Shown: one piece after another, positions 39,471-64,000 of the stretch | Position numbering within the stretch: position 1 is the stretch's first letter | How the letters are laid out: the number at the start of each line of letters is the position of its first letter | Virus record (IMG/VR): IMGVR_UViG_3300029705_000018 | DNA from: a virus | Taxonomy: Duplodnaviria > Heunggongvirae > Uroviricota > Caudoviricetes | Length of the DNA stretch: 64,000 nucleotides | Direction: 5' to 3' (one strand) | Notes under the pieces: model-generated | What the model was told of the DNA's origin: nothing | The model's input: the letters and a program-made list of their open reading frames with translations, nothing else | Database searches by the model: none | Program-made: the position numbers and the translations under genes

Positions 39471-39475
39471 TCGTA

Positions 39476-42793: not shown

Positions 42794-42848
42794 TTATCTC
42801 ACCTCTTGATTATTGTATCATAGTTTGGAGATTTTGTCAAGCCCTTTT

Positions 42849-49106: not shown

Positions 49107-49135
49107 TTGACAATGAAAAATTTTTCTGGTATAAT
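49107..49135 (+). promoter_or_regulatory. consensus sigma-70-type promoter in front of the late module
   Basis: TTGACA at 49107-49112, 17-nt spacer, TATAAT at 49130-49135. GGAGG ribosome-binding site and ATG at 49166. Confidence 0.55.
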
Positions 49136-49165: not shown

Positions 49166-50218
49166 ATGTTGAAATTAGATTATACTTTAGAATCTCCAGA
49201 AGAGAGAAGAGAATTGGTTGAAAAAATTCTAGCTGAAACCCCTAATCCCTCAGAGGCGTATCTAGAAACTTTAGCTGATTATCTAGTTCTCTGTATGGAG
49301 AAACAAGAGAAAAAGGAGCGCAAACTATTAACTGATAACCGTATGGCTACAGTCAATAAGCGAGAAACTTCTTATGAAGGTCTTGTTTCCCAGCTAGAGA
49401 ATGGCGAAGACGGCATTTATAATATGATAACTAATAATAAGAATACGATTTTCCAGCCAAAAGTAATGATAACTAAACAAGATGTAGAAGAAATACCCGG
49501 TATGTAGCAATTGCGCGACGCCATCAAAATGTGGGAAACAAAATTAAAGAGTGCCTCCGGGCGAGAAGCATTTATTATTAAGAGTACAATTATTGAATTG
49601 CGAAAAGATCAATATGTTTTGAAGAACGCTTATCGTAAACCAATTGTACCAACTAAAATCACTCGTTCAAGACACGATATTCCTTTAGATGATGATTTCT
49701 GGTTTGATGACGAAGGCTATATTGTTCCAGAGGGTGTTTCTTTATGTAATCCAAAAGTAGTCTCAGCAATTCTTTGTAACTACTCCTTATGTAAACAAGA
49801 AAGTTGGGGAGAGTTTGAAAAAGATTTATGGTACTTGATGGATGACTTTGACAGAGTTGCGGATGCTGCTTTGAAAAATTATCCATTGTATGAACGAATT
49901 GTTGAGTATAAAATTGATGGATTACAAAATATTGATATTCAAGAAAAAATCCAAATGGAGTTTGGGATCAAGCATAGTTTGGAATATATCTCAAGTTTAT
50001 GGCGTAATAAAATTCCAAAGATCATTGCGTCCGAGGCGGAAGATAGACTCTTAAATTGGTACTTCATGAATGAAATGAAGGGCAAATACAAAAAGTGCAG
50101 TCGTTGCGGGCAAGTCAAATTAGCTCACAATAAATACTTTAGTAAAAATAAGACAAGCCGAGATGGTTTTTATAGCATTTGCAAATGCTGTAGAAATGCG
50201 AAGGCCAAAAGCGTGTAA
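49166..50218 (+). CDS. hypothetical protein with an in-frame TAG at 49508-49510
   Basis: ORFs 49166..49507 and 49511..50218 are in the same frame, separated only by a TAG. A C-terminal CSRCG...CKCC zinc ribbon is present. Confidence 0.5.
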
Positions 50219-50262
50219 TTCCTCGCTGCTATTTTCATATTTTGTAAAGGAGGAATTTATAT

Positions 50263-51462
50263 ATGGCCCAAGAATCTTATTACTGTGAAAAATGTAATAG
50301 AACAATGGCGGCCGACCAGTTCTACGGTACTAATAATTTAGAAAAATATCCTGATGGTAAATTGCGCATTTGTAAGAAATGTATGACAATGCACGTAGAC
50401 AATTTCAATCCGGATACTTATTTATGGATTTTACAAGAATGCGATGTTCCATATATTCCAGAAGAATGGAATAAATTATTGGCATCATATGGTAAAGACC
50501 GCAGTAAACTGACTGGTCTGTCAATTATTGGTAGATATCTATCAAAAATGAAATTGAAGCAATTCCGAGATTATCGCTGGGAACACACCGAGCATCTTCA
50601 AGAAGTTGCGAATAAGAAAATTGAAGAGACGATGAAGCGTCAAGGATATGACGCAGTTGAAATCGCTCAAGCTGTCGCTCAGGCGACTGTCCCCGTCCCG
50701 CAGGGCATCATCGAACAACCAAAGTATGAAGAACCTAATCCATTCTTGGCATCTGGTGAAGAAGATTATTTTTCAGAGCAAAATGGTGGTCAAGATGACT
50801 TTGTTGATGATTTGACTGAAGAGGATAAAACCTATTTGCGTTTGAAATGGGGAAAAACTTATAAACCCGAAGAATGGGTTCGATTAGAACAGCTATATGA
50901 AGAAATGATGGCATCATATGATATTCAAGGTGCCGGACACATCGATACACTAAAATTGGTATGTAAGACATCTCTAAAGGCGAATCAATTAATCGACATT
51001 GGCGATATTGAAGGCTTCCAAAAGATGAGCAAAGTTTATGATAGTTTGATGAAGTCTGGTAAGTTCACCGCACAACAGAATAAAGCTGAAAGTGGTGACT
51101 TCGTTGATTCAATTGGCGAACTAATTGAAATGTGCGAAAAACAAGGATATATTGAAAGATATTATATTGAATCTCCAAAAGATAGAGTTGATATGACAAT
51201 TGCGGATATGCAGAGATATACTAAAACTCTGGTTGAAGAAGAAACCAATTTGTCAATCATGGTTGAAAAGGCTCTACGTGATATTGAGAAAGAAGATAAG
51301 GCTGAAGCTGAAAATACTGAAGATACAATTATCGATGATATTGATTTGAGTCTTGAGGATTTGGAAAAGACCTTGAAAGATCAAGATTATGTGGATTTCC
51401 AAGACTTCTTAGATGAAGAAGCTGAAGCTGACTCTGATTACTTGAATCGAGGTAGACGGTAA
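50263..51462 (+). CDS. hypothetical protein (N-terminal zinc ribbon CEKCN...CKKC; position suggests small terminase or DNA-packaging accessory)
   Basis: 399 aa with an acidic C-terminus. Immediately precedes the putative terminase large subunit. Confidence 0.4.
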   Translation: MAQESYYCEKCNRTMAADQFYGTNNLEKYPDGKLRICKKCMTMHVDNFNPDTYLWILQECDVPYIPEEWNKLLASYGKDRSKLTGLSIIGRYLSKMKLKQFRDYRWEHTEHLQEVANKKIEETMKRQGYDAVEIAQAVAQATVPVPQGIIEQPKYEEPNPFLASGEEDYFSEQNGGQDDFVDDLTEEDKTYLRLKWGKTYKPEEWVRLEQLYEEMMASYDIQGAGHIDTLKLVCKTSLKANQLIDIGDIEGFQKMSKVYDSLMKSGKFTAQQNKAESGDFVDSIGELIEMCEKQGYIERYYIESPKDRVDMTIADMQRYTKTLVEEETNLSIMVEKALRDIEKEDKAEAENTEDTIIDDIDLSLEDLEKTLKDQDYVDFQDFLDEEAEADSDYLNRGRR

Positions 51463-53201
51463 TGGCTTTACAAGATTTACTTGATTTATCAACATCCCGG
51501 AGAAAGATTGGTCTTTCTCCGGAACGTGTTGAGGCTGTTATGCCTACAATACGAAAGTACATAGCCTTTTGGAGAGAATATCCTGATTTATTCGTTGACT
51601 TTATGGTACGTGGAACTAGTACCGAAGTAAAAGATGGAGAATTCTGTTTTTATTTCTATCAAAGAGTTTTCCTTCGTTGCGTTATGAGATATTAGTATGT
51701 GTATGCGGTTTTTCCTCGTGCATATTCTAAATCTTTCTTGACTGTTATGGCATTGATGTGCCGTTGTATTTTATATCCCAATGCTCACTTGTTTGTCACT
51801 TCTGGTGGTAAGGAGCAGGGTGCTTCTATTCTACAAAGTAAAGTAGAAGAAATTTGTAAATTGATTCCCAGCTTTGAAAGAGAAATTGACTGGGGACGAG
51901 GTAAGACTTTAACTGGTAAAGATAAAGTCCGATATGTATTTAAGAATGGTTCTGTTCTGGATAACCTTGCGGCCCGTGAATCTACGCGTGGTCAGCGTCG
52001 TCATGGCGGCGTAATGGAGGAATGTGTTGGTATTGATGACCAAATCCTTCGCGAAGTTATTATCCCTGTTATGGCTATCTCTCGTCGTGCGAAAGATGGT
52101 ACTACTAATGAAAAAGAACCTTTGAATAAATCTCAGATTTATATTACAACTGCTGGATATAAAGGAACTTATCCATATGATAGATTGATTGGTTTCTTGG
52201 TTCGTATGGTCACTCAGCCCGATCGCTGTATTGTGCTTGGTGGTACTTGGAGAACGCCAGTGGCAATGGGATTACAGAGTAAAACATTCATTACCGACCA
52301 GAAGAATGAAGGTACTTATAATGAAGCCTCTTTCGAGCGTGAGTATGAGTCTAAGTGGTCTGGTACTGTTGAAGATGCATTCTTCAATGGAGAACATTTT
52401 ACTCGTAATAGAAAATTATTACAACCTGAATATGAACATTCCGGAAGGTCTGCGGCCGGCGCTTATTATGTGCTATCAGTCGACGTAGGTCGTAAGGGAT
52501 GTGATTCTGTTGTTTGTGTATTCAAGGTGACGCCGCAGGCGCAAGGCCCTGCTATCAAGTCTTTGGTAAATATTTATACAATGGCTGATGAACACTTTGA
52601 AGATCAAGCAATTAAGCTGAAAAAACTGTTCTATAAGTATAAAGCTAGAACTCTCGTAATCGACGGTAATGGTGTTGGTTTGGGTCTAATTGATTATATG
52701 ATTAAATCTTAGAATGATGAAAATGGAGACTTCTATCCTGACTTTGGCGTTCAAAACGACGATGAAGGTTATTATAAAAAGTATAGAACAGCTAATACTG
52801 AATATGATGCTATGTATATTATCAAGGCAAATGCGCCAATCAATACAGAGTGTCACGCAAACGCACAAAGCCAACTTGCGGCCGGTAAGGTAAAATTCTT
52901 GATTGATGAAAGAACAGCAAGAGAAAAATTACTGGGAACCGCAAAAGGTTAGAAAATGAAGCCTGAGGAAAGGGCAGAATACCTTCAACCATTTACCCTA
53001 ACTTCCATATTGAAAGAGGAAATGATGAATTTGCGTGAAGAAAATGAAGGCATAAATATCATTTTGAAACAAGCAAATCGTGGAATTAGGAAGGATAAGT
53101 TTTCTGCGTTTGAATATGGTTTGTATTATATAAAACAAGAAGAAGATAAAAAGAAGAAGAAAAAGAGATTTAACGCTGCTGATTGGGCGTTTTATAATTA
53201 A
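51462..53201 (+). CDS. putative terminase large subunit with three in-frame TAG codons
   Basis: ORFs 51462..51695, 51699..52712 and 52956..53201 are in one frame, joined through TAGs at 51696, 52713 and 52950. The C-terminal half has RNaseH-like nuclease motifs (YVLSVDVGRKGCDSVVCVF, LVIDGNGVGLGLID). The gene is followed by an endonuclease-like insert and the portal gene. Confidence 0.55.
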
Positions 53202-53212
53202 GGAGGGTTGAC

Positions 53213-53569
53213 ATGAGAGCATCTCGCGGTGAGATTAAGATTGAAGAAATCTTAAAAGAAGCTGAGCTTACTTTTAAGATGGAATATATCTTCCCTGACT
53301 TAAAGAGCCCCAATGGTCGCCCTTTAAGATTTGATTTTGTCGTTTTTGATGATGATGGTAAAATTGATTTTATTATTGAATATCAAGGAAAACAGCACTA
53401 TGAACCAAGTGCGAAGTTCGGTGGTAAAAAAGGATTTTATCAACAGCAATACAATGATAATCAAAAGCGACGCTTTTGTGCTTTACATGATTTTCGTTTA
53501 ATTGAAATACCATATACAGATGAAAACTTGATCTCTTATGACTATATCATGAAATTAGCAGGATATTAA
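53213..53569 (+). CDS. small PD-(D/E)XK-like endonuclease-domain protein (possible free-standing homing endonuclease)
   Basis: RFDFVVFDDDGKIDFIIEYQGKQHY, the same motif as the C-termini of 14297..15019 and 18768..19520. Sits between the terminase and portal genes, a classic homing-endonuclease location. Confidence 0.4.
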   Translation: MRASRGEIKIEEILKEAELTFKMEYIFPDLKSPNGRPLRFDFVVFDDDGKIDFIIEYQGKQHYEPSAKFGGKKGFYQQQYNDNQKRRFCALHDFRLIEIPYTDENLISYDYIMKLAGY

Positions 53570-53583
53570 AAGGAGGTGGAGTT

Positions 53584-55182
53584 TTGGATAAGTTAACTAG
53601 ACAAGAAGAAATTCGTGCCAAAGGTTTTGACATGGGTGGAACTACCTATGGTAAAATTAAAATTGGAACTAAAACACTTGAAGATGCCGTTTTGAATTTA
53701 GGTTCAATTCAAAAGGAAACTAGAAACATCATCAATAAAGGCGTTATTTATCGTGCGCTTGCGGATAATGATGTTGAGAAGTTAAGAGAGATTTCTAATT
53801 ACTTCTATAAGACCAGCGGTATCTATCAAAGAGTATGTAATTATTTCGCTACTATGTATCGTTATGATTGGTATGTTGTTCCAGAAGTATACGATGAAAG
53901 TATCAAAGAAGAAAAGATTGTTGGAGATTTCCATAAGGTCTTGAACTTCTTAGATAATTCATATGTCAAAAAAGTTTGCGGTGATATGGCTCTTGGCGTT
54001 ATCAAGAATGGCGCTTATTATGGATATATCGTTCCCACCTCAAAAGGAATTATTATTCAAGAGTTGCCTGTAAATTATTGCCGTTCTCGTTTTAGTTTGA
54101 ATAATTTACCAACTGTTGAGTTCAATATGAAGTTTTTTGATGTTATGTTCCCAGATACTGGATACAGAATGAAAGTATTGAATTTGTTCCCAGAAGAGTT
54201 CAAGAAGGGATATGCTGCTTACAAGAGTGGTAAGTTACTTCCTGAAAGTCCATGGGATAGAGATAGTGGTTGGTATTTGTTGGACCCAGAGAAAACCGTG
54301 AAATTTAGTTTTAGTAATGGTGGATTCGGCGGTGTCGATTTACCATTATTTATCAATGCGATTCCTCTTATTTTGGATTTGGATGCGGCTCAGGATTTGG
54401 ATCGTAGAAAGCAAATGCAAAAGTTATTGAAAATTGTAGTTCAGAAACTCCCATTAGATAAAAATGGTGATTTGATTTTTGACGTCGATGAAGCAAGAGA
54501 TATTCATAATAATGCTGTTTAGATGTTGAAGCGTGCGGTTGGTGTTGACGTATTGACTACTTTCGCTGATATTGAAAGTATTGATATGTCTGATAAGAAT
54601 ACTACTACTACTCAAGATGACTTGATGAAAGTTGAGCGTAGTGTATATAATGCTTTTGGTGTTCCGCAAAGTTTATTTAACTCTGATAGTAATTTAGCAA
54701 TGAATTTATCTGTGCTAAATGATGAAGGTGCGGTCCGCACCTTGTTGCTACAATTTGGTGTTTTCTTTGATAGACTAACACAGAATTTTGGTGCGAATAA
54801 AAAGAAATACAATTTTAGATTCTATATGCTTGAGACTACTCAGTATAACTACAAAGAGTTGTCTAAGATGTATAAAGAATGTGTTCAGTTAGGATATTCT
54901 AAGATGTTGCCTCAAATTGCTTTAGGCCATTCTCAGAGTGCTATCTTGAATACTGCTTACTTTGAAAATGAAGTTTTACATTTGAGTGAAGTTATGATTC
55001 CTCCGCTGATGTCTTCTACTATGAATATGCAAGACTTAAAGGGCAATTCTAATCAAACTCAAACTAACAAAACTCAAACTAAATCAGGAGGATAGTCTTC
55101 TGAGAAGTCTGCGGGCCGACCGGAGAAACCAGACAATCAAAAGAGCGATAAGACTATCCAAAATAAAGAATCTATGAGCTAA
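53584..55182 (+). CDS. putative portal protein with two in-frame TAG codons
   Basis: ORFs 53584..54522 and 54523..55095 are contiguous in frame through a TAG at 54520. The frame continues through a TAG at 55093 to a TAA at 55180. About 530 aa, directly downstream of the terminase large subunit. Confidence 0.5.
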
Positions 55183-55193
55183 GGAGGAGCAAG

Positions 55194-56720
55194 ATGCATA
55201 CAAGTATTAAGTTAGATACACCTGTTGAGTTTATCAACATTACTCCTCTCAATCCTTTGATTTCTAAATGTCAGATTAAGGTGTGCTACGTAAGCGATGA
55301 ACCAAATCGTAACCGTAGTATCATCACCAAAGAAGTTGCAAAGCAAATGGCTAATTCATTGCCAGGATGCCCTATCGTTGGTTTTTATAATGAAGATAAG
55401 GGCGACTTTGAGGAGCACAATCGTATCATTGATATTTCCAATGGAAAGTTCGAGATCAAGGATACTACTCGCCCATACGGTTTCGTTGATTTGAGTGCGA
55501 AAGTTTGGTTCCAAAAGTTCTTGGATGATGGAATGACTGAGCGAGAGTATATGATGACTGAGGGCTGGTTATGGACCGGCCAATATCCAGAGTGCCGCAG
55601 AATCCTGGCACATGGAAATAATCAATCCATGGAATTGGATGAAGGTACATTAGATGCTCATTGGTCAAAAGATGGTAATGGAGATCCCAAATTCTTTATT
55701 ATCAATGAAGCAATTATTTCAAAACTTTGTACTCTTGGTGAAAGTAATGAACCCTGCTTCGAGGGTGCCAACATTACTGCACCTACCATTCAATTCGCTT
55801 TTGAAGATGGCTTTAAAGAGCAACTATTCTCTATGATGAACGAATTGAAAGAATATTTGAATAAAGGAGGAGAAAAAGTGTTTACTAGATATGCTGTTGA
55901 AATCGGTGACGCTTTATGGACCGCTCTTTATAGTCGCGTTGAAGATGCTTACGTTATTGAGAGCGTATGTGAAGATGGTGAGCAGAAGTTCGCTGTTGTT
56001 ACTGCCGATGATAAGTATTACCGTTTAGATTTCTCCATCGCTGAAGACGGCGTAATTGAGTTCGCTGCTGAACCTGTTTTGATGGAAGAGTATACTCCAT
56101 CTGAAGAGCCTCAGTTTGATCCTGTCGCTGTTGATGAATATGCCAAGTCTAAGAAGGCCGCCAAGAAGGATGAAGATGATGACGAGCCTGAAAAGAAAGA
56201 TGGCGAAGGCGAGGAAGAAAAGTGCCCTAAGTGCGGCAAGCCTAAGTCTGAGTGTGAATGCGAAGACGAAGATGACGACGATAAAAAGAAAAAGGGCAAG
56301 AAAGAAAAATACAATCTTGATGAAATTCAAGAATATGTAGAGCTAAGCTCCAAATATTCTGACTTGGAGACTAATTATAATGCTGCTCAGGAAAAAATCG
56401 CTGACCTAGAAGCTCAGATTGGTGAGTTGACTGCATTTAAGAAGTCCATTGAAAAGGCAGAAAAAGAGAAAATGATTGACAGTTTCTATATGCTGTCTGA
56501 TGATGACAAGAAGGATGTTATTGAGAACATCGATACTTATTCTCTGGATGATATTGAAGCTAAGCTATCAATTATTTGTGTTCGCAACAAGGTCAGTTTC
56601 AACCTTGATGATGATAAGAACAATGGCGTAACCACCTATAATTTGGATGGTGGAGTTCCTGCGGACGAGACTGTTCCCGCTTGGATTAAAGCCTTGCGTT
56701 CTGTTGCGAGTGAAATGTAA
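55194..56720 (+). CDS. putative prohead protease/scaffolding protein
   Basis: 508 aa. N-terminal globular domain, then a long acidic/Lys-rich coiled-coil region with an embedded CPKCGK...CEC. Sits between the portal and major capsid genes. Confidence 0.35.
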   Translation: MHTSIKLDTPVEFINITPLNPLISKCQIKVCYVSDEPNRNRSIITKEVAKQMANSLPGCPIVGFYNEDKGDFEEHNRIIDISNGKFEIKDTTRPYGFVDLSAKVWFQKFLDDGMTEREYMMTEGWLWTGQYPECRRILAHGNNQSMELDEGTLDAHWSKDGNGDPKFFIINEAIISKLCTLGESNEPCFEGANITAPTIQFAFEDGFKEQLFSMMNELKEYLNKGGEKVFTRYAVEIGDALWTALYSRVEDAYVIESVCEDGEQKFAVVTADDKYYRLDFSIAEDGVIEFAAEPVLMEEYTPSEEPQFDPVAVDEYAKSKKAAKKDEDDDEPEKKDGEGEEEKCPKCGKPKSECECEDEDDDDKKKKGKKEKYNLDEIQEYVELSSKYSDLETNYNAAQEKIADLEAQIGELTAFKKSIEKAEKEKMIDSFYMLSDDDKKDVIENIDTYSLDDIEAKLSIICVRNKVSFNLDDDKNNGVTTYNLDGGVPADETVPAWIKALRSVASEM

Positions 56721-56747
56721 TAAAAACTAATAAGGAGGAAAATAGAA

Positions 56748-57566
56748 ATGCTTAGAGAATTATTGAAGAAGCATATTAAGTCTCAGGCAGAGTTCGTAGA
56801 AGTCGGCTACGGTCAGGTTGAACCCAACCACCTAAGCGCTCAGAGAACTGCTCAGATTTATGCTCAGTTGCCTGCTGATCCTGCTATTAAGGTTCTAGAG
56901 CAGGGACAGTTTGTTAAGTATGACTATGCAGCTGGCCTTGTAAACTTTACTGGTGCAGGCGAGTGGATGCTTGTTTATAACGAAATCAAGTTGTATCGTG
57001 AGCATCAGTTAGATTGCGAGTTCGCAATGTTAAAAGACAATTATCAGGCTCGTGTTTATAGCCCATTGGATCACACCAAGCCTGAGGAGATGTACGGTCC
57101 TACCCGTTTCATGAACGGCGTAAGAGAGCGTTATAATCCTACTACCGGCGCTTTCGAGCAGTTGGATGAAATCAAGAATCCTGAGACTGGCGAAGTTGCT
57201 GATTACAGCGTTATTTCTAGCGTACATGACTACTATGAGATGAACGACATCAACAATCCTGAAATCGAGGGAGACGCTCGTAAGAGATTGTTCATGAAGT
57301 TGCGTGATTACCAGGAGAAGATGATGCCCGCAGGTACTACTATGGTTCCTCGTGTATTCAAGACTAATGTTGGTGACCACTACACTACCAACCTAATCCA
57401 TGCTGAACCCGGCTCTTTGAAGGAGTTCGATCTATTGGCTCCTCGTGCTGCCGATGGTATCTTAGAGCCTGTTGCTGATGCTTCTGGCGATATGGTATGG
57501 CAGGTTGCTAAGGTTTACACTATGCCTGACCACCAGCCTGGTGTCAAGGTTATTAGAATTAAGTAA
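56748..57566 (+). CDS. hypothetical structural protein
   Basis: 272 aa. AAGGAGG ribosome-binding site. Confidence 0.4.
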   Translation: MLRELLKKHIKSQAEFVEVGYGQVEPNHLSAQRTAQIYAQLPADPAIKVLEQGQFVKYDYAAGLVNFTGAGEWMLVYNEIKLYREHQLDCEFAMLKDNYQARVYSPLDHTKPEEMYGPTRFMNGVRERYNPTTGAFEQLDEIKNPETGEVADYSVISSVHDYYEMNDINNPEIEGDARKRLFMKLRDYQEKMMPAGTTMVPRVFKTNVGDHYTTNLIHAEPGSLKEFDLLAPRAADGILEPVADASGDMVWQVAKVYTMPDHQPGVKVIRIK

Positions 57567-57585
57567 TTGAAAGGAGAGAAGTATA

Positions 57586-58725
57586 ATGGCTTTAGATAAG
57601 AAAAATTTAGTACAGCTGGCAAAGACTGTAGCAAAAGCTGACCCTTCTGCTCCTGTTTCTTACAGCTTCAATGGCGAAAGTTTTAACTATGAGACTCTAA
57701 ATGAGACTCTACGCCGTGAATTCAATGAGATTGCTGGTACTTACGCTTTGTATCGTGAGAACAAGCACCTGATCTTCGCAGTTATCGAAGAGACTATGGA
57801 CGAGGTTCTGCCTAAGAAGGTTGAGCAGGCTTATATGCAGTTTGCTGAGACCAAGCAGTTCGCTCAGGGCGACAAGCCTATTTTCCGTCGTAAGAGAGAC
57901 GTTCGTCAGCGCGCTAAGCAGTTCGTAACTCGCGTTGGTCTAGCAGGTATTTACGAAGTCTTCAAGCTAGGTCCTAGTGAAGAAGAGAGCTTCGAAGTCC
58001 GCACTAGCGCCATCGGTGGAGCTGCTCAGATCGGCTTCGAAGAGTTCTTGGATGGACGTGTTGACTTCGCTGAAGTAACTAATATCGTCATGGAAGGCAT
58101 GAACGAGTTGATCATGAAGGAAGTTGGTCATGCACTAGCTGCTTCTATCAATCAGTTGCCTCCTGCTAATATCGCTGTTGTTAATGGTTTCGACGAGCAG
58201 GAATTCGATCGCTTGTTGGTTATCGCTTCTGCTTACGGTGAGCCTACCATTTACTGCACTTACGAGTTTGCCGTAAAGATGGTTCCTACCGAGGGTTGGA
58301 GATACACTGAGTCCATGAAGCAGCAGTTGTGGGATACTGGTCACTTGGCTACTTACAAGGGACGTAAGGTTGTTATTCTACCCCAGGGCTTAGAGGATGA
58401 GACCAATATGCGCAAGGTAATCAATCCTGGTTACTGCTACATCATCCCCGCTGGTGCTGACACCAAGCCTGTGAAGATTGCTTTCGAGGGTAATACCATT
58501 GTTGACGAGTTCAATAACTATGACCGTTCTCGTGATATTCACGTCTATAAGAAGGTCGGCGTTCTAGCTATGTTGGCTAACAACATCTGCGCTTACGCTG
58601 ATGCTAGCTTGTTGGGTCAGATGGATATTGCTGGCTCTGTTTGGGATAGCACTGCTTATGTAAGTGAAGTTAAGGCTTATGCTGAGTCCACTTACAATCC
58701 TAACTACGAGTTCCCAAAGGTTTAA
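57586..58725 (+). CDS. putative major capsid protein
   Basis: 379 aa. Strong GGAGAG ribosome-binding site. Followed by the strongest terminator in the window. Downstream of the scaffold/protease gene. Confidence 0.45.
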   Translation: MALDKKNLVQLAKTVAKADPSAPVSYSFNGESFNYETLNETLRREFNEIAGTYALYRENKHLIFAVIEETMDEVLPKKVEQAYMQFAETKQFAQGDKPIFRRKRDVRQRAKQFVTRVGLAGIYEVFKLGPSEEESFEVRTSAIGGAAQIGFEEFLDGRVDFAEVTNIVMEGMNELIMKEVGHALAASINQLPPANIAVVNGFDEQEFDRLLVIASAYGEPTIYCTYEFAVKMVPTEGWRYTESMKQQLWDTGHLATYKGRKVVILPQGLEDETNMRKVINPGYCYIIPAGADTKPVKIAFEGNTIVDEFNNYDRSRDIHVYKKVGVLAMLANNICAYADASLLGQMDIAGSVWDSTAYVSEVKAYAESTYNPNYEFPKV

Positions 58726-58749
58726 TTTAATATAAAATAATTAGTTTAG

Positions 58750-58790
58750 AGGGGGAAGAGGGGATATCCCCACTTCCCCCTATTTTTTAT
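58750..58790 (+). terminator. rho-independent terminator
   Basis: GGGGGAAGAGGGGATATCCCCACTTCCCCC followed by TATTTTTT. Confidence 0.7.
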
Positions 58791-58813
58791 TATGAGAAAA
58801 AGGAGATAATACA

Positions 58814-59398
58814 ATGGCTATTTTTAATGTAAAGAACAGAGGTGCTAGTTGGGTCACCTATAAGATTCCAGAAGACGGAATCCGCAGAAGTTTTGCTCCC
58901 GGCGAAGTAAAGAAAGTTAGCGATGTTGAATTGGAAAAGCTAACTTATCAGCCTGGTGGTATGGTTATTCTTTCCCAGTTCCTTCAGATTCAAGACGAAG
59001 TTGCTCTAAGAAATTTGAATATTCGTACTGAGCCTGAGTATCATATGAGCGAAGCAGATGTTGCTGCTTTGATTAGAACTGGTTCTTTAGATGCTTTCTT
59101 AGATGCTCTTGATTTTGCTCCAGCTGGAGTTATTGATTTGATCAAGAAGTTGAGCTTGGAAATTCCTCTAATGGATTTGGGTAAGAGAAAGGCTTTGAAA
59201 GATAAGACTGGTCTTGATGTCGATGCTGCTCTAAAGAACAGAGAAGCTGAGAAGGAAGACGAGAATGGTGGAAATACCATCCTAAAGCAGACTGAGCGTA
59301 GAGTGAAGACTGAGGAAGTCGCTCCTGGTCGTCGTACCACTACTCCTAAGTACAATATTATTAAGACAGAGCCAGCAGCTGATAAAGCTACTGAATAA
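58814..59398 (+). CDS. hypothetical structural protein
   Basis: 194 aa. Confidence 0.4.
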   Translation: MAIFNVKNRGASWVTYKIPEDGIRRSFAPGEVKKVSDVELEKLTYQPGGMVILSQFLQIQDEVALRNLNIRTEPEYHMSEADVAALIRTGSLDAFLDALDFAPAGVIDLIKKLSLEIPLMDLGKRKALKDKTGLDVDAALKNREAEKEDENGGNTILKQTERRVKTEEVAPGRRTTTPKYNIIKTEPAADKATE

Positions 59399-59420
59399 TA
59401 AAATATAAGGAGGCAATTAT

Positions 59421-59999
59421 ATGACATTATTTTCGTCTGTCTATAATCGCTTTCTTGGACAAGTTACCGATGACCTCTATCTAGAGCTCACTCCAGAAGA
59501 TACATTAAGAGATTTACAAAATCTTTTGCTTAATGCAATTCCGGGTTTTGAATTTCCTAGACAAAATCTTTATGATTATACTCTTAATTTGACAGAAAAG
59601 CTGGAAAGTGATGTAACCCCTGATGAATTTATTTTAGGTACTATCTGGGGTAATTTAGATGGAGAATTATTAGAAACTCCTAAAGTCCTAGTAGATAATT
59701 CACATTTTAATGTTGAACTTACTGCTGAGGAAATTAATATCTTGGCGCTTTTAATGAAACAAGGTTGGGTTCAGCGTCAAGTAACTTCAATTGAAAATAC
59801 TCGTATGAAATATAGTGGAAGCGATTTTAAAATGACTTCTCAAGCTAATCATTTATCTAAGTTATTAGCTTTGTTAGAAGAGAGTCGAAGAGATTCTTTC
59901 CATATGCAAAGACTATATAAGCGTCGTAAATTTACGGCCGATGGTAAATATGCCTCCAACTGGGGCAGTTTAATGGAGACTAGTGCTCTTGATTACTAA
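59421..59999 (+). CDS. hypothetical structural protein
   Basis: 192 aa. Confidence 0.4.
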   Translation: MTLFSSVYNRFLGQVTDDLYLELTPEDTLRDLQNLLLNAIPGFEFPRQNLYDYTLNLTEKLESDVTPDEFILGTIWGNLDGELLETPKVLVDNSHFNVELTAEEINILALLMKQGWVQRQVTSIENTRMKYSGSDFKMTSQANHLSKLLALLEESRRDSFHMQRLYKRRKFTADGKYASNWGSLMETSALDY

Positions 60000-60210
60000 G
60001 TATGGTTTTGAATTTCGTGTGTATGATATTGAAGTAAATGTTCGTCGCTTAACCAACCAATTATGGAAGCTAATTCCAATGCGCGAACACGAAGAAGATT
60101 GGCTGAAACAATTAGATACAGTAACTATTGAGATTGCGGGACTGAATGAAATTTTTACAGGCCCGCAATTTTTACAGATGTTATGTAAATTAGAGGGATT
60201 AAAGACCTAG
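59983..60210 (+). CDS. hypothetical protein (GTG start)
   Basis: 75 aa, overlapping the upstream stop codon. Confidence 0.3.
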   Translation: MLLITKYGFEFRVYDIEVNVRRLTNQLWKLIPMREHEEDWLKQLDTVTIEIAGLNEIFTGPQFLQMLCKLEGLKT

Positions 60211-60277
60211 GAAACAGAATTTGAGCTATATCGCAAAACTGTGTTTGAATGCATTAGTTTATTGTAGGAGCTAAACC

Positions 60278-61324
60278 ATGGCATCAGGTTATGATTTAAG
60301 TAGTCAAATCCCTTTTAGATTGATGAAAGGCCGATTAGGAGTTTATGATAAAAGAAAGTTTGATCCAAAGAAGAGTGGGGTTGATGGAGTTCTTCATCAA
60401 TCAGCTCGTATGGGACAAGCTGGCGGTAATCTATAGCAAGAGCGAATGATTAAAGATAAACGTCGTTCTTTAGACCATGCGGTTTGGTATTCTTATCAAG
60501 GTGCAAAAGTTATTCCTGTAGATGCGAGCGATCGGACGCCGATCCGCGCACTTATCAATCCGAATAAGTTGAAAATGGATTATGATGATAAAATTATTTC
60601 AGTGGGCTATGAATATAACTTTGCTCCTGGAACGGTTTTTGAGTGGGTTGGTACAGGAACTTATTGGATTGTACAATTACAAGATTTAACTGAATTAGCT
60701 TATTTTCGTGGAGATATAAGAAGATGCCGTTATGAAATTGCTTGGGAAGATGAAAACGGTAAGCATAAAACTTATGCGGCTGTTAGAGGTCCCGTTGAAA
60801 CGAAAATCAATTATATTCAAAAGCATGGAATAAGTGTTGATACTCCTAATCTTTCGCTGAATCTTTATTTACCATTAAATGAAGATACAAAAAATTATTT
60901 CAAACGTTATTCTAAATTTTATTTGTAGAATGATGATACTTGTTGGCGTGTTGAAGCTCTTGATTGGATTTCTACTCCTGGTATTTTAGAGATTGCCGCA
61001 GTTGAATATTATGCAAATGAATTTGAAGATGATGTTGAAAATGGTGTTGTAGATGGATTAATTGAAGAAATTCCAGATCCAAATGTAGCTGGTGGTAAGA
61101 TTATTGGTGATACCTTCATTAAAATTAGACAACCTGCTGTGTTTAAATTTGATGGTAATATTGGAGCAGTCTGGGAAGTGGATAAAAAATATCCTGTGAC
61201 CTTAGATATTGATAAAGATGATCCTCGTATAGTAGTAGTTACCTGGGAAGGATCATTCAGCGGTTAGTTTGAATTGAGATATTCAAAATATAGTAAGACT
61301 ATTGTAGTAGAATCTCTATTTTAA
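60278..61324 (+). CDS. hypothetical tail-region protein with three in-frame TAG codons
   Basis: ATG at 60278 (GGAG ribosome-binding site). The six-frame ORF 60446..60928 is in the same frame. TAGs at 60434, 60926 and 61265. The frame ends at TAA 61322-61324. Invisible to a standard-code ORF scan. Confidence 0.45.
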
Positions 61325-61350
61325 GAACTAAGAGTAAAAGGAGTGTTTAT

Positions 61351-61941
61351 ATGAAAATTGAAACTTATACATATCCTAAGTCTAGTTTTTTAGCTTTAGA
61401 AAAGGATATGGGTATTATTGTTTAGATGATTATGAAAAATGATCGTTTAAAGAAAATGCTTTATTACACAACCAAGGATTGTTTAGATAGACCAAAACTA
61501 ACTAAAATGTAGACCAATAGTTTATTTGGAGAGCAAATAAAAATTGTTCCAAAATTATATATAGATCATTCTGTATTAAATTATATTATCGTTAGTTTTG
61601 ATAATTTTGTACCAAATCGTACTAATCCAGAATTTAGAGATAATATTATTGAATTTGATATTATTTGTCATTATGATCAATGGCATATGAAAGATTTTGA
61701 ATTGCGTCCATATAAAATTGCAGCAGAATTAGATTCTATGTTTAGTGAATAGCATTTAACTGGCATTGGTAAATTAGAATTTAATGGTGCTAATCAAATT
61801 TTACTTACCGATGAATATGCTGGTTTATGTATTACTTTTAGAGCAATCCATGGAGAAGAAGATAAAAAATTTATGCCGAATCCAATGGATGAAGAGGCAT
61901 TTATTGAGAACTTTAATGCAATTTTTAATGAGGATAAATAA
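61351..61941 (+). CDS. hypothetical protein with three in-frame TAG codons
   Basis: AAAGGAG ribosome-binding site and ATG at 61351. About 196 codons read continuously once TAG is treated as sense. No standard-code ORF exists here. Confidence 0.4.
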
Positions 61942-61943
61942 TT

Positions 61944-62669
61944 ATGGATACTAGATTAGCTCTAATGTGTGGAGCTGATTATCCAGTTCCAGAATTATAG
62001 ATTACAGTTCATTAGCCTCAAATAAAAGAAATTGCATATATTGGGGAGACAGATTTTTTCTCAGGAGTTCAATGTTTGTGTTTGAATAAATCTATGTTTG
62101 TAAAGGACGAAAGTGATTTACTCAATACGAGCAACTTTTAGATATTTATGACGATAATGTCAGAAAAAGAAGCGGCAGATAAAAAAAGAGCTGTTTAGCA
62201 AGTTTGTTCTTTGTTTTTTCCAAAACATAGATTGCTGATGACACCACGCTCTGTGCTATTAAGTGATGGCTCAGCAAATATTCAAATTGATGAAACTAAC
62301 TTTGAATTTTTACAAAATGCTATATCAACTATTTGCTGTTTAAAAACTGGCCCTATGGATCAGACAACTTTCAATCCCGCAGATGCTAAAGCGAGAGAGA
62401 TCGCTGAAAAACTTATGCGAGGACGTTAGAGAGTTGCGGCTCAAAAGGGCGAAACTAACACAAGTATATTTAGCCAATATCTTTCAATCATTACTGTAGG
62501 ACTACATTCAATGTCTCTACAAGACGCGACTGAATTGACCATGTTCCAATTATACGATTTAGTTGAAAGATATATGCTATATATTAATTGGGATATGGAT
62601 ATTCGGTCTCGGTTGGCTGGCGCAAAGCCGGATTCTTAGCCGGATAACTGGATGAAAAATATCCACTAA
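61944..62669 (+). CDS. hypothetical protein with six in-frame TAG codons
   Basis: ATG at 61944 overlaps the upstream stop. The six-frame ORF 62211..62429 is in the same frame. 241 codons up to TAA at 62667. Confidence 0.4.
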
Positions 62670-62692
62670 TATTTTTAAGGAGGATACTACCT

Positions 62693-63745
62693 ATGAAATT
62701 TGGCGTTCGCGAAATTTGTGATGTCGTTCTAAAGGCAAAGGCCGCTCAGAAGGTTGGTAATAAAGTCTTCTATAAGAATGAGCCTGTTATTTATTTCGAC
62801 ACTTTGAAGACTTCCAGCATGGAAGGTACTGCTACTACTTCTTACGCACAGGGCGGTCGTGGTAACTCTCGTCTAATCGCTTGGGAAGGTGAGAGAACTG
62901 TTACTTTCACTATGGAAGATGCATTGATCTCTCCCGCTGGCTTCATGATTCTATCTGGTGCTGGCTTGGTTGAGGCTACTTCTAAGAACACTCTAAAGGT
63001 TCACACTACTGAGCAGACTAATAAGGTTAGAGTTGAAGGTACTGAAGTTCAGATTGTTTTGACTCAAAAGCCTTACGTTGGTAAAATGAATGCTGATGGT
63101 GCTTTAGTTGGTGCTCATGAAGATTTAATTTATGTTATGAAGTTAGATAATGGCGAAGTTGCTACTGAACCATATATTCCTGATCACAATGCTGTTACCG
63201 CTGTTGTCTTTGATGAAGAGAGCGATTGGTATGCACCTATGGCTGATGGTACTTCTGAAGACGAGGCCGATGGTTGGATGATTGTATTGAATGGTGCCGC
63301 TGTCACTGGCGCAAGACCTTCTCGTGAAGCTAACCCTGGTTTTGATGAAGTAAATGTATTTGCTAACGAAGATGTCGTATTGGTCGACTATTATGTTGAA
63401 CACGCATCTGCCGCACAGCAGATTGAGATTACTCCCGACAAGTTCGGTGGTAACTACTACTTAGAGGCTTCTACTCTATTCCGTGATACTAACGGTGTTG
63501 ATATGCCTGCTGAGTTCATCATTCCTAACTGCAAGATTCAGTCTAACTTCACTTTCACCATGGCTTCTTCTGGTGATCCATCTACTTTCACCTTCACCAT
63601 GGACGCATTCCCAGACTACACTCGCTTCGATCCTACTAAGAAGGTTCTAGCTGCTATCCAGATCATCCAGACTGGTAACGCTGCTGAAGTCGGAGCACGT
63701 ACTCGTACTTCTCACGATCCTGCTCACGAGAAGTATTTGATGTAA
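62693..63745 (+). CDS. putative major tail protein (tube or sheath)
   Basis: 350 aa. AAGGAGG ribosome-binding site. Ser/Thr/Gly-rich beta-type composition. Followed by a strong terminator. Confidence 0.35.
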   Translation: MKFGVREICDVVLKAKAAQKVGNKVFYKNEPVIYFDTLKTSSMEGTATTSYAQGGRGNSRLIAWEGERTVTFTMEDALISPAGFMILSGAGLVEATSKNTLKVHTTEQTNKVRVEGTEVQIVLTQKPYVGKMNADGALVGAHEDLIYVMKLDNGEVATEPYIPDHNAVTAVVFDEESDWYAPMADGTSEDEADGWMIVLNGAAVTGARPSREANPGFDEVNVFANEDVVLVDYYVEHASAAQQIEITPDKFGGNYYLEASTLFRDTNGVDMPAEFIIPNCKIQSNFTFTMASSGDPSTFTFTMDAFPDYTRFDPTKKVLAAIQIIQTGNAAEVGARTRTSHDPAHEKYLM

Positions 63746-63765
63746 TTTACAATTAAATAACTTTT

Positions 63766-63805
63766 TAGGGGAGAGATAAGAAATTATCTCTCCCCTTTTT
63801 TGTTT
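63766..63805 (+). terminator. rho-independent terminator
   Basis: GGGGAGAGATAAGAAATTATCTCTCCCC followed by TTTTTTG. Confidence 0.7.
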
Positions 63806-63829
63806 TATCCGGAGAGAAAGGAGAAAATA

Positions 63830-64000
63830 ATGGGTATTGGTAGTGAATTTGCTAGAAGAAATATTATTGAAGGATATGCCGATAAAAATCCTTTTTGGGA
63901 CCCTTATAGCGGAACTCCATAGTATTCTTTATTAAACCAAGTTTCAGTGCCAGATAACACTGCAATTAGAAACTATTAGATTGCAAAAATTCGTGAATGT
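63830..64000 (+). CDS. hypothetical protein (5' part; continues beyond the window) with in-frame TAGs
   Basis: AAAGGAGAAAATAATG start. The frame reads MGIGSEFARRNIIEGYADKNPFWDPYSGTP-(TAG)-YSLLNQVSVPDNTAIRNY-(TAG)-IAKI... Confidence 0.35.

What the first reader, a model, noticed from the sequence alone, without database searches (positions are those of the whole stretch)
49166..64000. TAG is read as a sense codon (most likely Gln) and is concentrated in late genes
The putative terminase large subunit, portal and four tail-region genes stay open only if TAG is translated. There are 3, 2, 3, 3, 6 and at least 2 in-frame TAGs respectively, and a standard-code ORF scan leaves 60.2-62.7 kb almost empty. 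Independent support comes from homology:
- In the papain-like peptidase (225..1013) the single in-frame TAG (888-890) falls exactly on the conserved oxyanion-hole Gln that precedes the catalytic Cys.
- In the GT2 glycosyltransferase (7781..8803), reading through the TAG restores the canonical IIPVYN...VIIVDDCS N-terminus.
TAA and TGA still terminate genes. This matches the stop-codon recoding (genetic code 15) described for some gut phages.
Basis: partly seen in the sequence, partly recalled or inferred. Interest (0 to 1): 0.85.

Follow-up and report, generated by a model that had tools for sequence, protein, structure and literature searches.

The report
Amber codon read as glutamine in phage
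This stretch of a roughly 200-kb gut phage genome reads the stop codon TAG as glutamine in many virion-assembly genes, using a suppressor tRNA encoded just outside the window; this is a real but already described trick of gut phages.

Summary
On the + strand, 49166-64000 is a gapless gene array only if TAG is sense: ORF coverage of 60.2-62.7 kb rises from 20% to 95%, while TGA- or TAA-sense gives no gain.

TAG means Gln. Across 80 related loci (362 alignment columns, 2326 TAGs), TAG's substitution partners match those of Gln. In the C1 peptidase it sits on the oxyanion-hole Gln, which is CAA/CAG in all 8 diverged orthologues.

A tRNA(CUA) lies 1.07 kb beyond the window's left edge, in a 203-kb contig identical to window 1-14926.

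Three refinements:
- TAG tracks codon-usage class more closely than position. It occurs in 12 of 22 genes with GC3 below 0.35 and 1 of 61 above.
- The probable major capsid gene and three other TAG-free virion-module genes (presumed abundant) lack TAG, and the three testable ones do so family-wide.
- One early gene (34833-35201, - strand) uses TAG as a true stop, so the codon has two meanings in this genome.

This is code 15 recoding, as published for gut phages. It is a new member of a known kind, of low to moderate interest.

The parts
49166..50218 (+). First gene of the + module. PHROG annotates it as a sigma factor (fold not verified). C-terminal zinc ribbon. One in-frame TAG at 49505.
   Evidence: phrog_5767 E=1.7e-51 over aa 32-345, spanning the TAG at aa 114. 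In 61 homologues the TAG aligns with N/K/A/R/Q sense codons. 90% of family members carry at least one TAG in this gene. The AF2 model was low confidence.
49107..49135 (+). Perfect sigma-A-type promoter (TTGACA-17-TGgTATAAT), 31 nt upstream of the first + strand gene. Its divergent partner lies at 49023-48995 on the - strand.
   Evidence: Both score 12/12 with an extended -10. No other consensus promoter inside 49.2-64 kb rises above the shuffle level.
51462..53201 (+). Terminase large subunit, 579 aa, with 3 in-frame TAGs (51693, 52710, 52950).
   Evidence: A 579-aa protein identical to the TAG=Q translation is already in the public collection. TAG 52710 aligns with CAA 60 / CAG 4 / TAG 7 in 71 relatives. 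Enterococcus phage H1 and Geobacillus virus E3 TerL align without stops across all three sites.
53632..55182 (+). Portal protein, 516 aa, with 2 in-frame TAGs (54520, 55093).
   Evidence: phrog_2739 portal, E=1.8e-83, over aa 42-514, spanning both TAGs. Relatives carry TAG/CAA/GAA/CAG at aa 297.
56748..59398 (+). Three TAG-free head genes, including the probable major capsid protein (57586-58725). They use CAG almost exclusively for Gln and have raised GC3.
   Evidence: Window counts are TAG 0, CAA 1, CAG 31. Family-wide TAG per 1000 codons is 0.69, 0.24 and 0.84, against 9-27 in neighbouring genes. 57586-58725 matches annotated major capsid proteins of Bacillus phages Kirov and Thrax (about 25% identity, 80% coverage). 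It also gives a weak HK97 capsid NCBIfam hint.
59989..60294 (+). Conserved small gene (~101 aa, start uncertain, ends TGA) with 2 in-frame TAGs (60208, 60265).
   Evidence: 74 blastp hits at 62-82% identity in related loci, including the standard-code relative L044. TAG 60208 aligns with CAA in 25 of 54. TAG 60265 aligns with TAG 32 / CAG 3 / CAA 3.
60278..61324 (+). Virion-module gene of unknown function with 3 in-frame TAGs (60434, 60926, 61265).
   Evidence: phrog_31155. TAG 60434 aligns with CAA 30 / CAG 9 / TAG 8 in 47 relatives.
61351..61941 (+). Virion structural protein gene with 3 in-frame TAGs (61423, 61510, 61750).
   Evidence: phrog_6123 over aa 6-166, spanning all three TAGs. Codon table.
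61944..62669 (+). Gene of unknown function with 6 in-frame TAGs (61998, 62013, 62139, 62196, 62427, 62637). It has the highest TAG density in the family.
   Evidence: phrog_4051 over aa 1-240 of 241. TAG 62013 aligns with TAG 35 / CAA 11. Family density is 26.9 TAG per 1000 codons.
62693..63796 (+). TAG-free virion structural gene (possibly the major tail protein), followed by a strong intrinsic terminator at 63767-63796.
   Evidence: phrog_2729, E=4.8e-55. Gln codons are TAG 0, CAA 1, CAG 9. The terminator has a 13-bp stem and a T-run.
63830..64000 (+). ORF running off the window, with 2 in-frame TAGs (63920, 63977).
   Evidence: Not checked against homologues, because the flanks of the related loci end before it.
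225..1013 (-). Papain-family (C1) peptidase with TAG at 888-890 (aa 42).
   Evidence: Pfam Peptidase_C1 over aa 36-220. The motif KNqGAVGSC aligns with KNQGQCGSC of cathepsin K, so the TAG sits on oxyanion-hole Gln19, six residues before catalytic Cys25. All 8 diverged orthologues have CAA or CAG there.
2050..2457 (-). PD-(D/E)XK nuclease gene with TAG at 2086-2088 (aa 124 of 135).
   Evidence: phrog_5018 covers aa 8-131, which passes the TAG. Pfam PDDEXK_5 covers aa 7-124. Being near the C-terminus, this is the least certain sense TAG.
7781..8803 (-). GT2 glycosyltransferase with TAG at 8717-8719 (aa 29).
   Evidence: Pfam Glycos_transf_2 covers aa 5-165 against model positions 1-155, spanning the TAG. 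It is called as 340 aa on long contigs.
18768..19520 (-). Zinc-ribbon plus DUF2726-type nuclease (homing-endonuclease-like) gene with TAG at 19455-19457 (aa 22). GC3 is 0.19, against 0.50 for its neighbours.
   Evidence: The N-terminal motif GN.Y..L.VI.RA.N...GRA.W.C.C.CG is conserved across the TAG in 71 homologues, which have E/D/G/K there. GC3.
30030..30167 (+). Ribbon-helix-helix protein (45 aa) with TAG at 30114-30116 (aa 29). GC3 is 0.20.
   Evidence: With TAG=Q it matches DUF6290 (39.7 bits) and RHH_1 (30.2 bits) above their cut-offs, over aa 1-41.
34795..35201 (-). Early gene (122 aa, 34833-35201) whose TAG at 34833-35 is a genuine stop, followed directly by a hairpin-plus-T-run terminator.
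   Evidence: Homologues L085-L087 end at the same residue with TAA. The motif CCGGGAAAAATCCCGGTTTTT follows the TAG. The read-through extension scores as non-coding (-18.5) and holds the next promoter at 34684. A standard-code pipeline calls the gene as 122 aa.
1033..13605 (-). Array of 31 tRNA genes, with no CUA anticodon inside the window. In the identical contig L082 the array continues leftwards to at least 39 tRNAs. The amber suppressor tRNA(CUA) there lies 1074-1148 nt beyond window position 1.
   Evidence: ARAGORN results. L082 is 100% identical to window 1-14926. The suppressor has U1, G73 and G10, like the two phage tRNA-Gln genes, plus a U1-U72 mismatch. A sigma-A-type promoter lies about 155 nt upstream of it.
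33104..49023 (-). Block of small TAG-free genes, each preceded by a consensus promoter of the form TTGACAAA-N-TGnTATAAT. I infer this is the early region.
   Evidence: 22 such promoters in this block. The whole window has 43 promoter matches against 0.78 expected from shuffles. Zero sense TAGs.

Best explanation
The window comes from a roughly 200-kb gut phage related to large siphophages of Bacillota. It uses genetic code 15 for part of its genome.

Shown:
- UAG inside about 14 genes of the window is a sense codon that stands for glutamine.
- An amber-suppressor tRNA(CUA) is encoded in the phage's own tRNA array, 1.07 kb beyond the window's left edge and behind a host-type promoter.
- TAG-bearing genes are the AT-rich, CAA-preferring ones. 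These are terminase, portal, the genes between the head genes and the 62693-63745 structural gene, a sigma-like gene, and accessory genes in the tRNA array.
- The GC3-rich, CAG-preferring genes are TAG-free. These are the small promoter-dense minus-strand genes, the probable major capsid gene and three other virion-module genes.
- One of the minus-strand genes uses TAG as its real stop.

Inferred:
- On entry, host ribosomes read the standard code and can make the TAG-free early proteins.
- Host RNA polymerase transcribes the tRNA array.
- A host enzyme charges the suppressor with Gln (GlnRS, or GluRS plus GatCAB).
- The suppressor then competes with release factor 1.
- Only then can full-length terminase, portal and neck proteins be made.
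- The presumed most abundant virion proteins avoid TAG because suppression is less efficient than ordinary decoding.
- TAG codons accumulate by C-to-T change of CAG in weakly expressed genes under AT-biased mutation.
For: ORF structure:
- Only TAG-sense restores a gapless gene array.

Homology across the TAGs:
- PHROG and Pfam matches span them.
- Cultured standard-code phages align through them without stops.

Amino-acid identity:
- In codon alignments of 14 late genes from up to 76 relatives each, there are 362 columns and 2326 TAGs.
- TAG's partner distribution is nearly that of Gln. The KL divergence is 0.017, against at least 0.29 for any other residue.
- The top partner codon is CAA. Tyr codons, one mutation away from TAG, make up only 1.6%.
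- The TAG in the C1 peptidase falls on the invariant oxyanion-hole Gln.

Suppressor tRNA:
- tRNA(CUA) is present in a 100%-identical 202,962-bp contig.
- It has a canonical cloverleaf.
- It shares U1 plus G73 only with the two phage tRNA-Gln genes, out of 39 tRNAs.
- A promoter lies upstream of it.

Distribution:
- Late versus early, Fisher p = 2e-7.
- GC3 class, Mann-Whitney p = 3e-7.
- The three head genes avoid TAG family-wide.

Dual meaning:
- TAG acts as a stop, followed by a terminator, in the early gene 34833-35201.

Literature:
- The same phenomenon, residue and late-gene bias are published.
Against: There is no protein-level or expression data. 'Early' and 'late' are inferred from strand, gene content and promoter pattern only.

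The + module itself starts with a perfect host-type promoter, so its transcription may not be late.

TAG tracks GC3 class at least as well as it tracks module. Mutation pressure plus relaxed selection could produce that pattern without any regulatory role.

The suppressor is not inside the window. It shows no close similarity to the phage's tRNA-Gln genes (59% identity).

No release factor or aminoacyl-tRNA synthetase gene was seen in the parts examined.

The major capsid and sigma-factor assignments rest on annotation-level similarity. Both structure models were low confidence.
Confidence: 0.92

Rival explanations
1. The recoding is real, but it is a neutral by-product and not a timing device. 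Once a suppressor tRNA is present, CAG-to-TAG changes are tolerated. They accumulate in AT-drifting, weakly expressed genes. Suppression is on throughout infection.
For: TAG presence follows GC3 class: 12 of 22 genes below 0.35 against 1 of 61 above.

The two TAG-bearing genes in the 'early' block are its most AT-rich ones.

The TAG-free virion-module genes, presumed abundant, lack TAG and prefer CAG.

The suppressor and the + module both sit behind host-type promoters.

The family shows no +4 context bias after TAG.
Against: Fifty-nine of 61 genes in the 13.0-48.7 kb block have no sense TAG, including the AT-rich gene 14297-15019 (GC3 0.12).

One early gene keeps TAG as a stop. That is only safe if suppression is low when the gene is expressed.

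The published clades show the same bias towards structural and lysis genes.
Confidence: 0.3
2. TAG is read as an amino acid other than glutamine. Candidates are pyrrolysine (ARAGORN's label for the tRNA), Glu, Lys or Tyr.
For: ARAGORN labels the CUA tRNA 'Pyl'.

At variable sites TAG also aligns with E, K and N.
Against: The 'Pyl' label reflects the anticodon only. The tRNA folds as an ordinary cloverleaf.

TAG's substitution profile matches Gln far better than any other residue.

At the invariant sites the partners are CAA and CAG only. These sites are the peptidase oxyanion Gln, TerL aa 417 and g60278 aa 53.

No pyl genes were seen in the regions examined.
Confidence: 0.03
3. The TAGs are real stops. 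The genes would then be pseudogenes, assembly errors, or split genes expressed as separate fragments.
For: Under the standard code some pipelines do call fragments. Examples are the peptidase as 38 + 192 aa on a short contig and PHROG families that cover only TerL fragments.
Against: Only TAG interrupts these frames, never TAA or TGA.

The same TAG positions recur in hundreds of independent contigs and interchange with CAA/CAG.

Catalytic and structural motifs lie on both sides of the TAGs.

A dedicated suppressor tRNA is present.
Confidence: 0.01

Closest known systems
TAG-to-Gln (genetic code 15) recoded gut phages: Lak, crAss-like, and the Jade, Sapphire and Agate clades (Borges et al., bioRxiv 10.1101/2021.08.26.457843; Yutin et al. 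2021, PMC7886860; proteomic proof in Peters et al. 2022, PMC9523058)
   Same: In-frame TAG aligns with Gln. A phage-encoded tRNA(CUA) is present. Only part of the genes are recoded, with a bias towards virion and packaging genes. Close standard-code relatives exist in the same clade; 13 related loci have no TAG at all in the late genes recovered from them. TAG stops are depleted. Genome size is about 200 kb and the host is probably Bacillota, as reported for Jade and Sapphire.
   Different: Membership of a named gemstone clade could not be tested. In this lineage the probable major capsid gene and its neighbours are TAG-free, whereas MCP was used as a marker of recoding in crAss-like phages. 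No RF2 or synthetase gene was seen in the parts examined.
phAss-1 / proposed Phassvirus group (Babkin et al. 2023, PMC10607447; GenBank OQ749652, NCBI 'Caudoviricetes code 15 clade')
   Same: It is the closest annotated relative: TerL and the probable capsid protein are both about 46% identical. It is a human-gut phage with TAG in TerL, portal and tail genes, encodes suppressor tRNA-CTA, and has no dedicated synthetase. Its relatives include Enterococcus phage EF1-like large siphophages.
   Different: phAss-1 is about 136 kb with three suppressor tRNAs. This phage is about 203 kb, has at least 39 tRNAs and one suppressor in the part seen. There is no nucleotide-level similarity.
supE-type amber suppressor tRNA-Gln of E. 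coli (my own knowledge)
   Same: A CUA anticodon that keeps U35, together with U1, G2:C71, G10 and G73. These fit the Gln identity set as I recall it for E. coli GlnRS.
   Different: It is not a recent point mutant of either phage tRNA-Gln (59% identity). It has a U1-U72 mismatch and C3:G70. The charging enzyme in the unknown host is not known.
TGA-to-Trp (code 4) recoded phages such as Agate, Jade and some crAss-like phages
   Same: The same logic applies: a stop codon is reassigned in late genes through a phage suppressor tRNA.
   Different: Here TGA remains a stop (18 of 59 genes called in 13.0-48.7 kb, and gene 59989-60294). Reading TGA as sense gives no gain in ORF coverage.

Membership tests
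Genetic code 15 (TAG=Gln) recoded phage | In-frame TAG inside conserved genes whose homologues are uninterrupted | tested here: met
   22 TAGs in 9 late genes plus 5 elsewhere. PHROG and Pfam matches and standard-code phage TerL span them.
Genetic code 15 (TAG=Gln) recoded phage | TAG aligns with glutamine and not with another residue or a gap | tested here: met
   KL divergence to the Gln partner profile is 0.017, against at least 0.29 for other residues, over 362 columns. The invariant catalytic-site Gln of the C1 peptidase is a TAG.
Genetic code 15 (TAG=Gln) recoded phage | TAA and TGA are kept as stops, and only TAG-sense raises coding density | tested here: met
   Coverage is 19.6% rising to 94.8% for TAG-sense only. 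Stop usage is about TAA 60, TGA 19, TAG 1.
Genetic code 15 (TAG=Gln) recoded phage | Phage-encoded suppressor tRNA with a CUA anticodon (frequent but not universal in published sets) | tested here: met
   It is absent from the window. It is present 1.07 kb beyond the window edge in the 100%-identical contig L082, and also in L081 and L088.
Genetic code 15 (TAG=Gln) recoded phage | Recoded codon enriched in structural, packaging and lysis genes, with early genes compatible with the standard code | tested here: met
   Fisher p = 2e-7. The caveat is that the major virion protein genes are TAG-free. No lysis genes were identified in the window.
Genetic code 15 (TAG=Gln) recoded phage | Gln incorporated at UAG in the protein (mass spectrometry) | not testable with these tools
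   This needs metaproteomics of the kind in PMC9523058.
Genetic code 15 (TAG=Gln) recoded phage | The host uses the standard code | not testable with these tools
   The host is unknown. Indirect support comes from one early gene ending in TAG with a terminator, and from relatives that infect Enterococcus, Bacillus and Geobacillus.
Named clades Jade, Sapphire or Agate (Borges et al.) | Placement in the published terminase tree | not tested
Genome size (about 203 kb) and the Bacillota-type relatives are compatible with Jade or Sapphire.
Pyrrolysine decoding system | tRNA-Pyl architecture and pylS/pylBCD genes | tested here: not met
   The tRNA(CUA) folds as a canonical cloverleaf. No pyl genes appear in the gene calls examined. 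The substitution profile is that of Gln.

The most novel reading that the evidence does not exclude
The phage may run two translation regimes from one genome.

The first is a host-adapted gene set. It is GC3-rich, uses CAG and has no sense TAG. It comprises the early genes plus the presumed most abundant virion proteins.

The second is an AT-rich gene set. It uses CAA and TAG and depends on the phage's own array of at least 39 tRNAs, including the suppressor.

UAG would then be a stop early and Gln later. The sigma-like first gene of the virion module sits behind a host-type promoter but needs UAG suppression, so it could act as a translational gate for late transcription.
Probability: 0.3. 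Interest if true: 0.5.

Novelty: new member of a known kind. Interest (0 to 1): 0.27.

Why it matters
For annotation, this genome must be translated with table 15, but not blindly. A standard-code call fragments terminase, portal and at least seven other virion-module genes. A uniform table-15 call would add 61 spurious residues to the early gene 34833-35201.

For biology, the window gives a clean, internally controlled example of the published model of a code switch during infection:
- A real TAG stop sits in an early gene.
- TAG means Gln in assembly genes.
- The suppressor tRNA sits behind a host-type promoter.
- The probable major capsid gene and its two neighbours avoid TAG family-wide.

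None of this changes what is known about stop-codon recoding. It adds detail that could guide experiments once a host is found.

Tried and rejected
- **Nucleotide search.** A megablast of the late module against GenBank phages found nothing. Only protein-level relatives exist.
- **Peptidase look-up.** I used a TAG-free neighbouring gene instead.
- **Origin of the suppressor.** Its best match within the array is 70% identity to a tRNA-Met and 59% to the tRNA-Gln genes, which is uninformative. A blastn against GenBank phages gave no match. An exact-match scan of IMG/VR found a single contig.
- **Suppressor versus TAG use across relatives.** I tried to correlate the two through peptidase-linked loci. 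Those orthologues are not next to tRNA arrays, apart from one array without a CUA tRNA.
- **Structure models.** The probable capsid protein gave pLDDT 48.8 and the sigma-like protein 53.0. Both are too poor for fold searches and were not used. Profile searches of the PDB gave only noise.
- **Termination context.** In the window the base after TAG is G in only 1 of 22 cases. Family-wide, the +4 distribution equals that of CAG codons, so there is no general rule.
- **Other candidate TAG-terminated genes.** 34833-35201 is the only ORF ending in TAG that has a positive coding score and does not overlap a called gene.
- **Apparent in-frame TAGs that are not real.** TAG 48651 lies upstream of the FolD start. 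TAG 13154 is in a frame overlapping a better-supported gene.
- **Possible hidden suppressors.** Two extra Rfam tRNA hits (11868-11937, 11953-12021) have abnormal anticodon loops and look degenerate.

Full report
**What the window is**

The window has 42% GC and three parts:
- 1-13.6 kb: an array of 31 tRNA genes on the minus strand, with a few accessory genes.
- 13-48.7 kb: a block of about 60 mostly small minus-strand genes.
- From 49166: a tightly packed plus-strand module with terminase, portal and virion genes.

GC skew changes sign with the coding strand.

The terminase, translated with TAG as Q, is identical to a 579-aa protein already in the public protein collection. That protein occurs on contigs of 200-275 kb. 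So some pipelines already translate this genome with table 15.

One such contig is ENA ERZ27248370 k141_2695036 (202,962 bp, locus L082). It is 100% identical to window 1-14926.

There is no nucleotide-level match in GenBank phages. Protein-level relatives are:
- the code-15 phage phAss-1 (TerL 46% identical);
- large siphophages of Enterococcus, Geobacillus and Bacillus.

**Check of the observation**

I add three TAGs:
- one in the first gene of the module (49505);
It has 74 homologous hits, including a standard-code relative.

The total is 22 in-frame TAGs in 9 plus-strand genes.

Reading TAG as sense raises coverage of 60.2-62.7 kb by long ORFs from 19.6% to 94.8%. For the whole module the rise is from 76.9% to 95.8%. 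Reading TGA or TAA as sense gives essentially no gain. This is not a chance effect of removing any one stop codon.

**Is TAG a sense codon, and which residue?**

I fetched 80 related loci from IMG/VR (TerL 58-97% identical) and built codon alignments for 14 late genes.

At conserved positions the window's TAGs align with CAA, CAG or TAG:
- TerL aa 417: CAA 60, CAG 4, TAG 7.
- g60278 aa 53: CAA 30, CAG 9, TAG 8.
- g61944 aa 24: TAG 35, CAA 11.

Across the family, 362 alignment columns hold 2326 TAG codons. The distribution of residues that share a column with TAG is almost identical to that of Gln. The Kullback-Leibler divergence is 0.017, and the next best residue (Lys) gives 0.29. Tyr codons, one mutation away from TAG, account for only 1.6%.

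Independent functional evidence comes from the papain-family peptidase (225-1013, minus strand):
- Its single TAG is residue 42 of KN-q-GAVGSC.
- That motif aligns with KNQGQCGSC of cathepsin K, so the TAG sits on the oxyanion-hole Gln six residues before the catalytic Cys.
- All eight diverged phage orthologues have CAA or CAG there.

Other TAGs lie inside family matches that pass the curated cut-offs:
- GT2 glycosyltransferase;
- PD-(D/E)XK nuclease;
- a ribbon-helix-helix protein, which matches only if read through;
- a zinc-ribbon/nuclease gene whose N-terminal motif is conserved across the TAG in 71 homologues.

Terminases of the cultured standard-code phages Enterococcus phage H1 and Geobacillus virus E3 align across all three TerL TAG positions without a stop.

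**The suppressor tRNA**

None of the 31 tRNAs in the window has a CUA anticodon. In the identical contig the array continues beyond the window's left edge to at least 39 tRNAs. A tRNA with anticodon CUA lies 1074-1148 nt outside the window. It is also present in L081 and in an IMG/VR contig.

ARAGORN labels this tRNA 'Pyl' because of the anticodon. It nevertheless folds as an ordinary cloverleaf with a U1-U72 mismatch.

Among the 39 tRNAs, only this one and the two tRNA-Gln genes combine U1 with discriminator G73. It also has G2:C71 and G10. These fit the glutamine identity set as I recall it from E. coli, which is my own knowledge and was not tested here.

The suppressor is not a recent derivative of either tRNA-Gln (59% identity).

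**Where TAG is and is not**

| Region | TAG | CAA + CAG codons | Total codons |
|---|---|---|---|
| Plus-strand virion module (49.1-64 kb) | 22 | 169 | 4799 |
| Minus-strand block (13-48.7 kb) | 2 | 265 | 8753 |
| Accessory genes in the tRNA array | 3 | 34 | 983 |

The difference between the first two rows gives Fisher p = 2e-7.

The pattern is finer than 'late genes'. Four virion-module genes have no TAG and use CAG 40 times against CAA twice:
- the probable major capsid gene 57586-58725;
- its neighbours 56748-57566 and 58814-59398;
- the structural gene 62693-63745.

The other late genes use CAA 96, CAG 31 and TAG 22.

This holds across the family:

| Gene | TAG per 1000 codons |
|---|---|
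| 56748-57566 | 0.69 |
| 57586-58725 (probable capsid) | 0.24 |
| 58814-59398 | 0.84 |
| Terminase, portal and the neck-region genes (59421 to 61944) | 9-27 |

The capsid assignment rests on two things. One is matches to annotated major capsid proteins of Bacillus phages (about 25% identity). The other is a weak HK97-capsid hint. The structure model was too poor to use.

Over all genes in the window:

| GC3 of gene | Genes with TAG | Genes in class |
|---|---|---|
| below 0.35 | 12 | 22 |
| 0.35 and above | 1 | 61 |

Mann-Whitney p = 3e-7.

The two TAG-bearing genes inside the 'early' block are among its most AT-rich (GC3 0.19 and 0.20, against a block mean of 0.50).

Thirteen related loci have no TAG at all in the late genes recovered from them. 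Standard-code and recoded members therefore coexist in the clade, as published for other clades.

**TAG is also still a stop**

The minus-strand gene 34833-35201 (122 aa) ends ...LIAKRKAKS-TAG. The evidence that this TAG is a real stop is:
- Its three homologues end at the same residue with TAA.
- A hairpin with a T-run (CCGGGAAAAATCCCGGTTTTT) follows at once.
- The 61-codon read-through extension scores as non-coding.
- That extension contains the promoter of the next gene.
- A standard-code pipeline calls the gene as 122 aa.

It is the only such case in the window. Stop usage is about TAA 60, TGA 19 and TAG 1. TAG stops are therefore strongly depleted but not abolished.

**Temporal inference**

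The window holds 43 matches to a strict sigma-A-type promoter pattern, against 0.78 expected from shuffles. Thirty-eight are on the minus strand. They come in two flavours:
- TTGACAAA, a GC-rich spacer, then TGnTATAAT. One precedes nearly every small gene at 33-49 kb.
- TTGATTTTT, an A/T-only spacer, then TGnTATAAT. These lie in the tRNA array and the 13-33 kb block. One sits about 155 nt upstream of the suppressor tRNA in L082.

Inside the virion module there is nothing above background. The exception is one perfect promoter at 49107, 31 nt before the sigma-like first gene. That gene carries a TAG here and in 90% of relatives.

A strong terminator follows the TAG-free structural gene at 63767-63796.

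These features fit a host-polymerase-driven early programme that includes the suppressor tRNA. They are sequence patterns and not expression data.

**Mechanism**

Shown: UAG is a Gln sense codon in about 14 genes of this window. A cognate phage tRNA exists next to the window. TAG use is partitioned by gene class. TAG remains a stop in one early gene.

Inferred:
- The suppressor is charged by a host enzyme.
- It competes with RF1.
- TAG-bearing assembly proteins become translatable only once it has accumulated.
- The presumed most abundant virion proteins avoid TAG because suppression is costly.
- TAG arises from CAG by C-to-T change under AT pressure.

The main open alternative is that the distribution is a neutral by-product of mutation bias and expression level, not a timing device. 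I give that about 0.3.

**Comparison with what is known**

All the elements below are published:
- TAG=Gln by terminase alignment, suppressor tRNAs in a third of genomes, bias towards structural and lysis genes, standard-code sister genomes, TAG-stop depletion, and clades of 150-210 kb.
- Recoding in parts of the genome holding putative late genes in crAss-like phages.
- The phAss-1 group, which is the nearest annotated relative.

NCBI taxonomy already has a 'Caudoviricetes code 15 clade'.

What may be specific to this lineage is the TAG-free capsid block, the tight link to GC3 class, and a documented dual use of TAG within one genome. These are refinements and not a new kind of system.

**Verdict**

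It is a new member of a known kind. Interest is about 0.27.

Noticed in passing
window 2984-3609 (- strand): A full-length ROOL RNA (Rfam RF03087, 323 bits, model 1-574 of 574) sits inside the tRNA array. It explains the ORF-free gap at 2458-4093. From my own knowledge, ROOL is a large structured RNA of unknown function, often found near tRNAs in phages. Its position in the same array as an amber suppressor may be worth a look.
   Followed up: no
window 1170-49135, mostly - strand (e.g. 13507, 37051, 46476, 49023; + strand 49107): There are 43 near-perfect sigma-A-type promoters with an extended -10, against 0.78 expected. They fall into two sequence classes: a GC-rich spacer at 33-49 kb and an A/T-only spacer at 1-33 kb. 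The 56-64-nt direct repeats in the tRNA region (two copies are 100% identical, at 10937-11000 and 13457-13520) are these promoters.
   Followed up: partly
window 53213-53569 (+), 14297-15019 (-), 18768-19520 (-): Three paralogous homing-endonuclease-like genes with a DUF2726-type nuclease domain. One is wedged between terminase and portal. In relatives L047 and L048 the terminase match is stretched by 0.3-0.9 kb. In Enterococcus phages EF1 and EF5 the terminase is split by an HNH gene. The terminase locus therefore looks like a hotspot for mobile insertions.
   Followed up: no
window 11868-11937 and 11953-12021 (- strand); 10489-10524 (- strand): Two tRNA-like elements pass the Rfam tRNA threshold but have abnormal anticodon loops (10 nt and 4 nt), and ARAGORN does not call them. 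They are probably decayed tRNA genes. A DUF3800-XI RNA motif match lies nearby.
   Followed up: partly
window, the 22 late-module TAG codons: In the window the base after an in-frame TAG is G only once in 22 cases, where about a third would be expected. Across the family the +4 base distribution after TAG equals that after CAG. This may be chance or specific to the lineage.
   Followed up: partly
L081 16161-18662 versus L082 (same position, just past the suppressor tRNA): Two contigs that are otherwise about 100% identical differ directly downstream of the suppressor tRNA. L081 carries an 833-aa gene with major-vault-protein shoulder domain hits. L082 carries further tRNAs (Leu, Gly, Lys, Lys, Met, Cys). 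The end of the tRNA array is therefore variable.
   Followed up: no
window 30030-30751 (+ strand): The TAG-containing RHH gene (DUF6290) is followed by a DUF6291/HTH gene. Both are in a short + strand island inside the minus-strand block. This looks like a small regulatory cassette, and one member needs amber suppression.
   Followed up: no
window 47841-48620, 33614-34147, 36167-36637 (- strand): Auxiliary metabolic genes in the early block: FolD-like methylenetetrahydrofolate dehydrogenase/cyclohydrolase, an HD-domain phosphohydrolase, and (from the gene call on L169) a nucleoside 2-deoxyribosyltransferase. Together they suggest nucleotide-pool remodelling.
   Followed up: no
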